NCBI GenBank assembly: GCA_951406725.2 | Contig: OX597820.1 | Location: 3,844,001 to 3,908,000, forward strand | Reading direction: 5' to 3' | Length of the DNA: 64,000 bases | Source: Octopus vulgaris | Taxonomy: Eukaryota | Shown here: positions 20,801 to 60,792 of the stretch, piece by piece | Layout of the letters: each line of letters begins with the position of its first letter | Position numbering within the stretch: position 1 is the first letter of the stretch | Program-made: the position numbers and the translations under genes | Notes under the pieces: model-generated | The model's database searches: none | Told to the model about the DNA's origin: nothing | Seen by the model: only the letters and a program-made list of their open reading frames with translations

Positions 20801-21015
20801 ATTATCTTATAAACTTCATTAGCTCACAGCTGTTTCTGCTATAATATGCAGTGGACTTATAGTTGAGTGCCTGAATAACACATAGCTTCATCGGAGCCTT
20901 GAACAAGAAGTGCACTTCACGTTCAAGGCTCCGACGAAGCTATAAGCACTCATCTATGAGCCCACTGCATCTTAAAGCATAAACACCTGTAAGCTAATGA
21001 AGTCCATAAGATAAT
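20801..21015. ncRNA. Palindromic element with a degenerate hammerhead motif in each arm (family C)
   Basis: Centre gaagTGCActtc. Minus arm: GCT-CCGATGA-AGCTAT...ATAGCA-GAAAC-AGCT-GTG-AGC. Plus arm: GCT-CCGACGA-AGCT...TAAAC-ACCT-GTA-AGC. Confidence 0.55.
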
Positions 21016-21382
21016 GTGGCTGTGTGGTAAGTAGCTTGCTTACCAACCACATGGTTCTGGGTTCAGTCCCACTGCGTGGCACCTTGGGCAAGTGTCTTCT
21101 ACTATAGCTTCGGTCTGACCAAAGCCTTGTGAGTGGATTTGGTAGACGGAAACTGAAAGAAGCCCGTCGTATATATGTGTGTGTTTGTGTTTGTCCCCCA
21201 CCCCAACATCGCTTGACAACCGATGCTGGTGTGTTTACGTACCCGTAACTTAGCGGTTCGGCAAAACAGACTGATAGAATAAGTACTAGGCTTAGAAAGA
21301 ATAAGTCCTGGGTTCGATTTGCTCGACTAAAGGCGGTGCTCCAGCATGGCCACAGTCAAATGAACTGAATCAAATAAAAGAA
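21015..21382 (+). mobile_element. tRNA-derived SINE family 1 with internal microsatellite; copies at about 9591-9980, 24617-24775, 25186-25557, 30435-30806, 40544-40708, 44684-45085 and 49761-50178
   Basis: A box tggctgtgtggtaag, B box gggttcagtccc, shared body, and tail ...cagcatggccgcagtcaaatgactgaaacaagtaaaag. Confidence 0.9.
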
Positions 21383-22029
21383 TGTATGTATGTATGATGT
21401 ATGTGTGTGTACACGTACACACACACACATTAGCCATTGTTCCATACGTTCTGAGTAACATCATGCTTTACTTTTGTAAATCCCCAAATTACTCTGGTGG
21501 TTGATAAAAAAAGGGGGGGGAATACGTCTCGTATGAATGGACACGCAGGAATAAGTGGTGTGCATCATGCGATAGACAGAGAAAGCAAAAGGTTAATTGT
21601 TCGCCGAGCAACCCGCTTGCCGTCGGCCTGTTTGAGCCGAAGCTTTTCGTTACAACCCTTGTTTTCGAGTTCAAATTATTTCTGTCTCTACCTTGTCTTT
21701 CCCTGTTCTGAAGCTAATAAAACAAATTCTGGAATGGATGTGATGGTAGTTGTTGTGACAGTGAGAGGACCATGTAATTAAAACTCCTGAAATTGCTATT
21801 CCCCTTTGGTCACAGTCTAATGACGAAATCTGGTAAAAGTATTTTCTGTTTTAAAAGGGATTTTATTCTGGTTTCATTCAAAACAAAAAGAAAAACAAGC
21901 TAATGTAGTTTAAGGTAGAAGTGTAAGACGTAAATTGCAAATGATCAAAGTGGTAAAATTTCTATCTAGTTCCCAACCTGGTTTCATGTCTATTAATTTA
22001 AAGGTCTGCAATGGGGTGGCGGGAATAGA

Positions 22030-22751
22030 AAAGAACAGAGCGAGACCCACGTCATTCAGTGATGCTACGTCACACGTTCCTCCGCCTCCGCCACCACCTT
22101 AACAATGTAAAACCATGCTCACGTCTTAGTTTTTTCTTCCTATCTCTCTCGTCACTCTACCTATCATCTCTCTGTCTTTCTCCCCACTCTACCTATCATC
22201 TCTCTGTCTTTCTCCCCACTCTACCTATCATCTCTCCCTCTCCCTCTTTCGCCTCTATTGTTTTTCTCTCTCTCCCCACTCTCCGTATCATATCTCTGTC
22301 TTTCTCCCCACTCTACCTATCATCTCTCTTTCTCTCTCCCTCTTTCCCCTCTATTGTTTTTCTCTCTCTCTCCACTCCACTTACCATCTCTCTTTCTCCC
22401 CCTCTCTCTTCACTCTACCTATCATCTATCTATCCTACCTTTTATTTCCCTCTCTCCCTCCCCCACTTTCTCTCCCTCCCGCTCTCTCTCTCTCTCCCTC
22501 ACCTATCCTCTCTCTCTCTCTTCTCTTCTTCCTTCTGTTTATCTCTTTAAGCCTCACTCAACATCTTTCCATTTCACACCGGCTTTGTCATTCACACCGT
22601 GAACGATGCCTCATTTATCTTAGATGAATTATTTGACTAATCATTACTGTTAACCTGTCTATACAATATATAAGCCGCAATTATCTTATTAAGACATTAA
22701 ATCATTTCAAAAGTAGACCATCATCGGATATCATCTTTGTGTGGAGCAACT
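22030..22751 (+). promoter_or_regulatory. Putative ACSS promoter: two ACGTCA (CRE half-site) motifs at about 22049-22072, TATATAAG at 22667-22674, Inr-like TCATTT at 22702
   Basis: Motifs read directly in CpG-retaining sequence just upstream of the ATG. Function is untested and the TATA-Inr spacing is slightly long. Confidence 0.4.
22140..22550. repeat. Polypyrimidine minisatellite (about 32-bp unit ctctctgtctttctccccactctacctatcat, degenerating to (CT)n)
   Basis: Repeated units are visible and the top strand is almost all pyrimidine. Confidence 0.85.
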
Positions 22752-58039: not shown

Positions 58040-58539
58040 CCATAAATCCTCGAATATAGTCCGCCCTTGAGTATAATACGCAGGGGATTTTTAGGGGGTT
58101 GTATCTCTGAAAAACCTAAACCCTGTGTATAATATGCACCCCTTCTCTAACTTGAGTCAAGGAGATCTATGTAATGTCCTTGGTTTGTAAAAATGTATAT
58201 GGTAACGTCCTTTATTATAATTGTATATATAACATAATGCAAACGTGTAGCTTTTTTGTGCATTTTGTTTGCAGAAAATAAAGAAATAACAGTAATAACG
58301 TTTAATAAATGTTGCTTACTGCAAGTTATGGATGATTCTTTTATGACTTCATTGCTTTCAGGTATTTTCGTGCCCGACATCACAAAATACATCGGAATAA
58401 ACATTGCCGGACAGCAAATAGAGACTCGGACATTGCTTAGAAAATAATTTCCATTTTTAACCTTGTGTATAATATGCACTAGGGATTTTGACCTTTAAAT
58501 TTTTGGGAAAAAATGCAGATTATACACAAGGATTTATGG
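58040..58539. mobile_element. Tc2/pogo-like MITE (500 bp) with TA target duplication
   Basis: TA-CCATAAATCCT...TATA..CCGC / GCAGATTATA...AGGATTTATGG-TA, with internal subterminal repeats tgtgtataatatgcac. Confidence 0.8.
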
Positions 58540-60560
58540 TATTACAAAGTTAAGTGGGGCTGTTTTGGTTGTACATGATGGTGCTTCCTTAGCCAAGGAT
58601 TGAACCTACATTGGATAAATTAGTTAGGTACGACAGCCATTCATTAGAATAAATTAATTAGGTGTGAGGGCTTTTCATTGGAGACAGATTAATTATCCTT
58701 ATTAAGTTTTGGATGATTAATTACTAGATTTCTCAAAAAAAAATATAATCTGCAACATTCAGGTCAGCTTTGCTAGATTGAGATCAAAACTTATTTTTGC
58801 TGTTTCACTAAAAGCAGAAAAGATTAGTTGAAATTGTTTGAGATCGTGTGTGTGTGTTTGTGTGCGCACTTTATTATGTATGTGTTATACATAATATTTT
58901 TGTGTGATGGTGAATTTTTTATCCATTTTCATTTAACTGATTTCTTCTGTTCACAGCCATGGTTTGCTTGGAAAGTCTTGTTCCCATTTCATCTGCCATT
59001 TGAACCAGGAATATCATCTATTTTATGAATTATGTGTGTATGTATGTGTATATATGTATATATATATACACACACACAATTCATAAAATAAATGATATTC
59101 ATGGTTCAAATATATATATGTATGTATGTATGTATATCTATCTCTCTATATATATATGTGTATATATCTATCTATCTATCTATCTATATATCATCATCAT
59201 CATCATCATCATCGTTTAACGTCCGTTCTCCATGCTAGCATGGGTTGGACGGTTCGACCGGGGTTCTGGGAAGCCAGAAGGCTGCACCAGGCTCCAGTCT
59301 AATCTGGCAATGTTTCTACAGCTGGATGCCCTTCCTAACGCCAACCACTCCGTGAGTGTAATGGGTGCCTATTACGTGCCACCTGCACAGGTGCCAGGTG
59401 AGGCTGGCAACGGCCACGGTCAGATTGGTGTATTTTATGTGCCACCGGCACGGAAGCCAGTCGAGGCGGTGCTGGCATCGGCCACGAGTCGGATAGTGCT
59501 TTTTACGTACCACCAGACCAGGGATCCTGGCTGGTTCAATTCGATTTCGATTTCGCTTGCCCCAACATGTCTTCACAAGCAAAGGGGGTTGGCATGGGTG
59601 CCTGTCGTACGGTCGCATTGGAGTATTTTACGTGCCACGGCCACGAGTCGGATAGTGCTTTTTACGTACCACCAGACCAGGGATCCTGGCTGGTTCAATT
59701 CGATTTCGATTTCGCTTGCCCCAACATGTCTTCACAAGCAAAGGGGTTGGCATGGGTGCCTGTCACGGTCGCATTGATATTTTATGCCACGGCCACGAGT
59801 CGGATAGTGCTTTTACGTACCACCAGACCAGGGATCCTGGCTGGTTCATATCCGATATATATATCTATAATCTATATATCTATATCTATATATATATATA
59901 TATATATATAATATTAATTAGAGACAAAACCACTATTTTGCAAATCAAACAAGGAAAGACTTAATCAATACATAAAAAAATTTTAATATAAATTTATATA
60001 TATATATATATATATATATATGTGTGTGTGTGTATATATCTATCTAGCTATCTATCTATATATATATATATATATATATATATATATATATATATGTGTG
60101 TGTGTGTATGTATATATATCTATATATATGTGTGTGTGTGTGTGTATGTATATATATCTATATATATGTGTGTGTGTATGTATATATATCTATATATATG
60201 TGTGTGTGTATGTATATATATCTATATATATATGTGTGTGTATGTATATGTGTATATATATATATATATATATATATATATGTGTGTGTATGTATATATA
60301 TCTATATATATATATGTATGTCTATATATATATATGTGTGTGTGTATGTATATATATCTATATATATATATGTATGTCTATATATATATATATGTGTGTG
60401 TGTGTGTGTATGTATATATATCTATATATATATATGTATGTCTATATATATATATATGTGTGTGTGTGTGTGTATGTATATATATCTATATATATATATG
60501 TATGTCTATATATATATATATGTGTGTATGTATATATATCTATATATATATATATATATA

Positions 60561-60792
60561 CCGGAGTAAACACATAAATGTGAAACAAGGTGGAAAAAAG
60601 AGTACTCAAATACCAGTGGTAGAGTAATATGCTTTATTTTAAGCAGCAGAAAATTCAACAAAATCTGTTACTCTGAGTTTCTCGTTACCATTCATCAGAC
60701 AGTTTTTGCTAGCAAAAACTGTCTGATGAACGGTAACGAGAAATTCAGAGTAACAGATTTTGTTGAATTTTCTGCTGCTTAAAATAAAGTAT
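60561..60792. ncRNA. Palindromic double-hammerhead element (family B) in (TA)n; relatives at 30240-30415 and 26075-26160
   Basis: Centre gct|agc at 60710/60711. Plus arm: AAAACTGT-CTGATGA(60723)-ACG GTAA CGA-GAAAT-TCAGA-GTA-ACAGATTTT, then AATAAA. The minus arm has GAAAC. Confidence 0.75.

What the first reader, a model, noticed from the sequence alone, without database searches (positions are those of the whole stretch)
20801..60792. About seven dissimilar families share one architecture: hammerhead core, usually an inverted duplication, often at (TA)n
Seen: HHR-like layouts with different palindromic stem-III sequences: AACGTT (family A consensus), ACTCAGAGT (60.7 kb), ACAGCTGT (20.8 and 29.6 kb), ACCGGT (38.1 kb), TGGCCA (52.5 kb) and ACATATGT (47.74 kb). 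Different sequences keeping palindromy at the same position is what dimer-folding hammerheads would produce and argues against chance. No PLE ORF (RT plus GIY-YIG) is visible in the window. Inference: a large, unannotated retrozyme/PLE-derived repeat class, here about 15 motif-bearing arms in 64 kb, that repeat libraries could mislabel as MITEs or unknown.
Basis: partly seen in the sequence, partly recalled or inferred. Interest (0 to 1): 0.75.

Follow-up and report, generated by a model that had tools for sequence, protein, structure and literature searches.

The report
Hammerhead-bearing ends of Penelope-like retroelements
The seven repeats are the short end pieces of several known-type Penelope-like jumping genes, each carrying a predicted self-cutting hammerhead RNA, so the pattern is real but mostly ordinary; the one unusual part is a family whose end repeat starts with a tRNA-like signal that possibly lets RNA polymerase III read it.

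Summary
Confirmed in substance. All seven repeats are multi-copy families whose majority sequence is a complete minimal type-I hammerhead, each with its own palindromic stem III. In 800 kb of evenly spaced genome the motif occurs 41 times against 1.2 in shuffles. In the window only 3 of 17 arms are intact, and a relaxed window count is not above chance. They are not a new class: six of seven families join a Penelope-like (PLE) ORF elsewhere in the genome (Poseidon-type A; Neptune-type 38.1 kb; Hydra-type 60.7, 52.5, 29.6 and probably 47.7 kb). The 60.7-kb family has an intact 727-aa parent. Minimal hammerheads, opposite-strand pairs, the U3-A8 core, inverted 5' copies, (TA)n targeting and an octopus Hydra family are all in print. 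Inversion occurs in about half of unselected copies; (TA)n is family-specific (A is at background). The residue of interest is family A: its end repeat begins with A/B-box sequence, most short copies start there, and 12 copies share no T4 run, which fits but does not show polymerase III transcription. This scan reported the same picture, family A included, on other DNA of this genome.

The parts
13171..13437 (-). Family A arm: tRNA-like head, simple repeat, decayed hammerhead (core at 13291), tail
20772..21015 (.). Family C palindrome; two decayed hammerheads, U4C-type core CCGA(T/C)GA, stem III ACAGCTGT; follows (TA)25 at 20698; no parent ORF found
26075..26161 (-). Family B tail only, beside (TA)n
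29432..29926 (.). Family D palindrome; stem III ACAGCTGT; terminal repeat of a decayed Hydra-type PLE
30235..30414 (.). Older family-B palindrome, both hammerheads broken
31925..32099 (-). Family A arm, 5'-truncated, stem III deleted
32378..32728 (.). Family A arm (32477-32728 +, core 32635) with inverted copy of its head (32378-32460 -)
37656..38183 (.). Family E insertion between two (TA)n: long arm with tail on -, short arm on +; two intact U3-A8 hammerheads (37775 -, 38106 +), stem III ACCGGT; 3' end of a Neptune-type PLE
47695..47843 (-). Family G arm, decayed; stem III ACATATGT; probably Hydra-type PLE end
48011..48271 (+). Family A arm (core 48148)
50219..50442 (-). Family A arm (core 50334), decayed
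52010..52592 (-). Family F arm (core 52576; stem III ATGGCCAT in the family, U16.1 changed in this copy); 3' end of a Hydra-type PLE
60561..60789 (.). Family B: 158-bp palindrome with two hammerheads (60698 - intact, 60723 + stem III changed) plus 71-nt tail on one arm, inside (TA)n; terminal repeat of an intact Hydra-clade PLE
55813..56126 (.). Palindrome after (TA)23; 3' part of a further hammerhead family, truncated below the ribozyme

Best explanation
These repeats are the hammerhead-bearing terminal repeats (pLTR plus tail) of at least six distinct Penelope-like retroelement families, likely copied into the genome by the RT/GIY-YIG proteins of their full-length parents. Shown: six families continue into a PLE ORF at other loci (A Poseidon-type; E Neptune-type; B, D, F and probably G Hydra-type); parents carry the same hammerhead in their terminal repeats; the optional tail is on one arm only and in A, B and D runs on into the ORF start; palindrome centres vary between copies. 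Inferred: the endonuclease nicks AT-rich DNA ((TA)n for parents with a Cys linker, not for linker-less A); reverse transcription starts inside the tail at two sites (as shown in vitro for Poseidon_Ac); short copies come from 5' truncation or from short RNAs begun at the pLTR promoter; a second, inverted cDNA makes the palindrome. The ribozyme is predicted to cut as a dimer or with protein help in parent RNA; most short copies are dead, and palindromic ones bury the motif in a hairpin.
For: 41 vs 1.2 motifs in 800 kb. Seven unrelated families keep one layout with different stem I/II/III sequences, incl. the covarying U3-A8 core in 29/30 E loci and a free central base in B stem III. B parent: two 3.35-kb units with 727-aa ORF and a hammerhead in each terminal repeat, RWK/DKT/CxCX5C motifs as in Craig 2021; 2,023 B arms have non-palindromic upstream, mostly parent sequence among the 100 listed. 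A: ORF end 30 nt before the head in the ORF-end loci, near-full copy L382 with tail running into the ORF, RVT_1 E 2.7e-6. E: RT and GIY-YIG pieces 2.3 kb upstream with an inverted E tail at the 5' end in L342. F: GIY-YIG frame upstream in L346/L347, 33% to B parent. D: Hydra-type ORF directly behind the arm in L104, E 2e-54. Intact 781-aa RT+GIY-YIG ORFs exist.
Against: Family C has no parent: four loci with longer 5' ends gave no ORF. D, E and G links rest on one locus each, G with about 0.5 kb of other repeats between arm and ORF. Pfam finds nothing in the B-parent ORF and only a sub-threshold GIY-YIG in F; clade names rest on motifs, no tree was built. No cleavage or transposition was tested; one RNA run showed no start or end pile-up.
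Confidence: 0.9

Rival explanations
1. A separate class of non-coding retrozymes that replicate through self-cleaved circular RNA and only borrow PLE enzymes.
For: Short copies outnumber ORF-bearing ones about tenfold in A; family C has no ORF parent; true tandem hammerhead arrays of about 360 nt occur in the random sample (L255, L287).
Against: None of the seven families was seen as a short tandem array; six continue into PLE ORFs; copies extend upstream across the cleavage site instead of starting at it.
Confidence: 0.07
2. The palindromes are MITEs (DNA transposons) with hammerhead-like words by coincidence.
For: Family B top hits have one fixed 229-bp form in TA on both sides (30 of 30), which a repeat library could read as a TA-target MITE.
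Against: Centres vary among unselected copies; the tail sits on one arm only; parents encode RT, not a transposase; no flanking duplication was visible at the three correctly oriented single-arm A copies inspected.
Confidence: 0.01
3. The motifs are chance matches in AT-rich repeats.
For: Relaxed window count 12 vs 6.9+-2.9; no hammerhead family among the 150 Rfam rows shown of 352 or at 38.1 kb.
Against: 41 vs 1.2 in 800 kb, decoys 0-4; family majorities restore a full core.
Confidence: 0.01

Closest known systems
Minimal type-I hammerheads of metazoan PLEs (Cervera & De la Pena 2014, PMC4209133; parts 1-2 of 4 read)
   Same: Many sequence-unrelated families per genome, palindromic helix III, extra base after A9, U3-A8 covariant core, opposite-strand pairs 100-700 bp apart, most motifs single and ascribed to truncated PLEs.
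   Different: Density here is higher (about 50 per Mb, roughly 1.4e5 by extrapolation, against 2,000-9,000 per genome there, with different descriptors); family C has a U4C core (a natural U4C variant is mentioned for a viroid in PMC3088659, one passage seen).
Hydra-clade PLEs incl. Hydra-1_Obim of Octopus bimaculoides (Craig et al. 2021, PMC8557442; section 11, passages and supplement hits read)
   Same: RWK, DKT, CxCX5C linker, CxxC/CxH round the conserved E/N, canonical hammerhead, (TA)n target; a Hydra entry in the supplement ends in a hammerhead with the same stem I and stem III as family B.
   Different: The B parent is a different family (its hammerhead differs from that listed for Hydra-1_Obim), young (98% identity among copies), 3.35 kb, with pLTRs.
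Poseidon_Ac of the green anole (Frangieh et al. 2024, PMC11167929; parts 1-2 of 4 read)
   Same: Family A parent: no Cys linker, hammerhead and optional 30-nt tail overlapping the ORF start, inverted 5' copies.
   Different: Its terminal repeat opens with a tRNA-like A/B-box segment; the D. virilis Penelope promoter is described as LINE-like (PMC2377424, abstract only).
Non-LTR retrozymes (Cervera & de la Pena 2020, PMC7229834, passages; Li et al. 2026 bioRxiv 10.64898/2026.07.22.740005, part 1 of 5 and passages)
   Same: Non-coding type-I hammerhead repeats related to PLE pLTRs.
   Different: Retrozymes are tandem units with two or more consecutive hammerheads; these are single or head-to-head arms with coding parents.
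Pol III-promoter elements: Schistosoma hammerhead SINE-like repeats (review PMC6765202, passages) and TRIMp3 (Kojima 2024, PMC10886601, passages)
   Same: Small-RNA-derived promoter inside a mobile unit or its terminal repeat; hammerhead in the schistosome case.
   Different: Those are non-autonomous; in family A the tRNA-like segment sits in the terminal repeat of a protein-coding PLE.

Membership tests
Minimal type-I hammerhead (PLE type) | Core CUGANGA...GAAA..UH (or U3-A8) closed by stems I and II | tested here: met
   Family majorities; intact natural arms in six families, none of 25 loci in G; C has U4C
Minimal type-I hammerhead (PLE type) | Palindromic helix III with no room for a loop | tested here: met
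   ACGT, ACTCNGAGT, ACAGCTGT, ACCGGT, ATGGCCAT, ACATATGT
Minimal type-I hammerhead (PLE type) | Self-cleavage at H17 | not testable with these tools
   No bench assay; no end pile-up in one RNA run
EN+ Penelope-like element | ORF with RT and C-terminal GIY-YIG linked to the repeat | tested here: met
   A, B, D, E, F (G probable) at other loci; not met for C; none in the window
EN+ Penelope-like element | pLTR tandems, inverted 5'-truncated copy, optional tail | tested here: met
Hydra clade (B, D, F, G parents) | RWK, DKT, CxCX5C linker, no CCHH, (TA)n target | tested here: met
   All in L387 against Craig section 11 and supplement alignment; D shows RWK and DKT, F the linker; no tree built
Neptune clade (E parent) | CX2-5CxxC linker before GIY-YIG | tested here: met
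   L342 frame; 50-59% to the 781-aa ORF; Nematis not excluded by a tree
Non-LTR retrozyme | Tandem units with at least two consecutive hammerheads and no ORF | tested here: not met
   No short tandem array seen for the seven families in window or loci
MITE | Fixed terminal inverted repeats and target-site duplication | tested here: not met
   Variable centres, one-sided tail; a TA duplication cannot be seen inside (TA)n
tRNA-derived SINE (short copies of A) | tRNA-derived head with A and B boxes | tested here: inconclusive
   A-box and B-box words (consensus recalled) with an anticodon-like arm in 69 aligned heads; Rfam and ARAGORN find no tRNA
tRNA-derived SINE (short copies of A) | Copies begin at the head | tested here: met
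   Coverage 1 upstream vs 9-13 inside the head in 1.56 Mb not selected for A; 3 of 30 selected copies run into the ORF
tRNA-derived SINE (short copies of A) | Transcription by RNA polymerase III | not testable with these tools
   Indirect only: no shared T4 run

The most novel reading that the evidence does not exclude
The family-A parent is a protein-coding Penelope element whose terminal repeat is a tRNA-derived polymerase III promoter: the whole 2.6-kb element would be a polymerase III transcript (no conserved T4 terminator on its sense strand), and the same promoter in the 3' repeat spawns a hammerhead-bearing SINE (about 15 insertions per Mb) that the element's own enzyme copies.
Probability: 0.3. 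Interest if true: 0.65.

Novelty: new member of a known kind. Interest (0 to 1): 0.33.

Why it matters
Practical: on the order of 1e5 intact-looking hammerheads (rough extrapolation from 41 per 800 kb) mark PLE ends that repeat pipelines can file as SINE, MITE or unknown; a 2026 octopus repeat annotation lists 893 'unclassified SINE' families among recent insertions and its methods name no ribozyme search (PMC13282606, parts 1-2 of 3 read). The young, intact Hydra-clade parent is a ready substrate for testing (TA)n targeting and inversion. If family A is read by polymerase III, it would be a coding retrotransposon with a promoter type so far tied to non-autonomous elements, and a direct view of a SINE being born from its own mobiliser.

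Tried and rejected
Rfam on the window: only microsatellite-driven miRNA matches in the 150 rows shown of 352; nothing at the E hammerhead or the A head. Relaxed descriptor on the window alone: not above shuffles. I first read B as a parentless fixed unit (0 of 28 unselected arms extend upstream); overturned this. I first took an L1-like ORF upstream of two F copies and a Neptune ORF in L346 as F's parent; both are neighbouring insertions, the shared upstream frame is Hydra-type. Parent search for C failed. Minimum-energy cofolding did not reproduce the dimer fold cleanly and is not used as evidence. Sequencing runs: no RNA holder listed on record; raw run X24 gave 8,164 family-A reads on both strands, depth about 640 before and 1,470 inside the head, no start or end pile-up, and 2 reads for E: uninformative. 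Dinucleotide shuffles absorb the T-run signal; per-copy mononucleotide tests give P 0.025-0.45. Literature searches for a tRNA- or Pol III-driven PLE or a PLE-mobilised SINE listed no such report, judged from titles and abstract starts; subscription papers, Repbase and Dfam were not searched, and Lunse et al. 2017 was not held (known only through the review). The bioRxiv supplement and the Zenodo library of PMC13282606 were not seen and may already hold these families.
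Full report
Setting. The window is G000:C7:3844001-3908000 of a 2.8-Gb animal genome, octopus-like by inference (its Hydra-type ORF resembles Hydra-1_Obim). It holds an acetyl-CoA synthetase exon, many microsatellites and no tRNA gene. I name the families A (five arms), B (60.7 kb), C (20.8), D (29.6), E (38.1), F (52.5), G (47.7).

1. Observation. The stem-III words are at the stated places and local inverted duplications exist at 20.8, 29.5, 32.4, 37.7-38.2 and 60.6 kb; F and G are single arms. 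Of 17 arms three are intact. In 80 evenly spaced 10-kb stretches a descriptor (C3-G8 or U3-A8 core, U4 or C4, stems I and II of at least 3 bp, palindromic stem III) hit 41 times against 1.2+-0.9 in 20 shuffles; decoy cores or boxes gave 0, 4, 4, 2, 1. Seven hits are one tandem locus and a few are AT-rich chance matches. Each family is multi-copy (first-look candidates 3885, 772, 1672, 960, 1624, 257, 97; lower bounds); in the 800 kb there are 12 A, 8 B, 3 C, 0 D, 2 E, 0 F insertions.

2. Anatomy. Alignments of the top 25-30 loci restore a full hammerhead in every family. E looks broken in the window but its TTGACAA core is the covarying U3-A8 form, kept in 29 of 30 loci and described by Cervera and De la Pena 2014. 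C has CCG, CTG and CCA cores in 8, 8 and 6 of 22 exact pattern matches, which points to an ancestral U4C core eroded at CpG (inference). All families end in an optional tail on one arm. Inversion and (TA)n rates are given in the observation check: about half of unselected A and B insertions are inverted; B and F favour (TA)n, A does not.

3. Parents. A GIY-YIG search found 150 scored matches, many in 781-aa frames, which are RT plus GIY-YIG with pLTRs, inverted 5' copies and hammerheads. No frame longer than 569 aa was among 150 scored matches, so this parent looks decayed. E joins a Neptune-type ORF in L342, with an inverted E tail at the 5' end. F joins a GIY-YIG frame with a CxCX5C linker in L346 and L347. 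For B, a pattern that excludes the perfect palindrome gave 2,023 matches, with same-strand pairs 3.35 kb apart; two such units hold a 727-aa ORF between two hammerhead repeats with the Hydra motifs of Craig et al. 2021, though Pfam is blank. That ORF then found a Hydra-type frame directly behind a D arm (L104) and, past other repeats, behind a G arm (L365). C stayed unlinked. No PLE ORF lies in the window.

4. Mechanism. Shown: sequence continuity with PLE ORFs, tail asymmetry, variable centres, target bias that follows the Cys linker in A, B, E and F (a link proposed in PMC8557442). From published work: AT-rich nicking and internal initiation at two sites that define the tail; hammerhead cleavage is protein-assisted and not needed for insertion in vitro (PMC11167929); minimal hammerheads cleave weakly as dimers (PMC4209133). 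Inferred: short copies arise by 5' truncation or from short RNAs begun at the pLTR promoter; they extend across the cleavage site, so uncut RNA was the template. Palindromic insertions fold into one hairpin and so would not be active ribozymes; opposite-strand arms cannot form the dimer.

5. Family A. Its repeat begins with A-box and B-box words and an anticodon-like arm (box consensus recalled), though Rfam sees no tRNA. In 1.56 Mb not selected for A, coverage is 1 just upstream and 9-13 inside the head. Of 30 selected copies 3 run into the ORF, 19 start between -19 and +5 (five of these overshoot because of the inverted arm) and 8 start at +6 to +21; the query began near +21, so shorter copies were excluded. 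Twelve natural copies spanning a 2,854-column alignment hold 13 T4 runs, none shared by more than two copies, whereas Neptune ORFs hold 8-9 in 2,343 nt and the B parent 45-46 in 3.35 kb. Against: two other PLE pieces are also poor in T runs (1 in 1,002; 0 in 573), per-copy P values are 0.025-0.45, B shows a similar 5' step without any tRNA-like head, a small natural hairpin sits at the A start, and RNA reads gave no defined ends. I put polymerase III transcription of the whole element at 0.3.

6. Comparison and verdict. The architecture is that of published PLE hammerheads, Hydra elements are known from an octopus with (TA)n preference, and earlier notes of this scan describe the same system in this and other genomes (unchecked AI notes, not counted as support). 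Novelty: new members of a known kind. Interest 0.33, carried by the density, the intact young Hydra parent and the open question about family A.

Noticed in passing
window 22701-23054 (+): Exon of an acetyl-CoA synthetase gene (Pfam ACAS_N, E 2e-19); the repeats probably lie in its introns and flanks.
   Followed up: partly
window 55813-56126 and 40808-40993: Two more palindromic or inverted repeats are 3' parts of multi-copy families; relatives of 55.8 kb carry an intact hammerhead upstream; for 40.8 kb a hammerhead-like layout is visible upstream in relatives but was not scored.
   Followed up: partly
window 2152-2349, 31099-31346, 41739-41919, 51479-51536, 35910-36052, 57914-57987: Further palindromes without a hammerhead; few or no relatives in 1.95 Mb of fetched loci.
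   Followed up: partly
window 17744-18846, 26666-28776, 34456-35720: Fragments of a LINE-type reverse transcriptase ORF (frames; RTE-like by recall, not searched).
   Followed up: no
L211, L212, L221, L222: Intact 781-aa Neptune-type ORFs, many near-identical copies; L212, L213, L215 carry U3-A8 hammerheads in the 3' repeat; L221 has two extra open frames of 258 and 220 aa upstream of the RT ORF.
   Followed up: partly
L214, L216: A second Neptune-type family with a CCGAAGA (U4C) core kept in both arms.
   Followed up: no
L255 and L287: Tandem hammerhead arrays of 353-362 nt period, retrozyme-like.
   Followed up: no
L387/L388, upstream of the B hammerhead: Short B copies begin about 11-18 nt before the core, at an initiator-like word with a TATA-like word 27 nt upstream (promoter consensus recalled), suggesting short copies start at the terminal-repeat promoter.
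   Followed up: partly
window 11742-12648: 29-bp minisatellite array.
   Followed up: no
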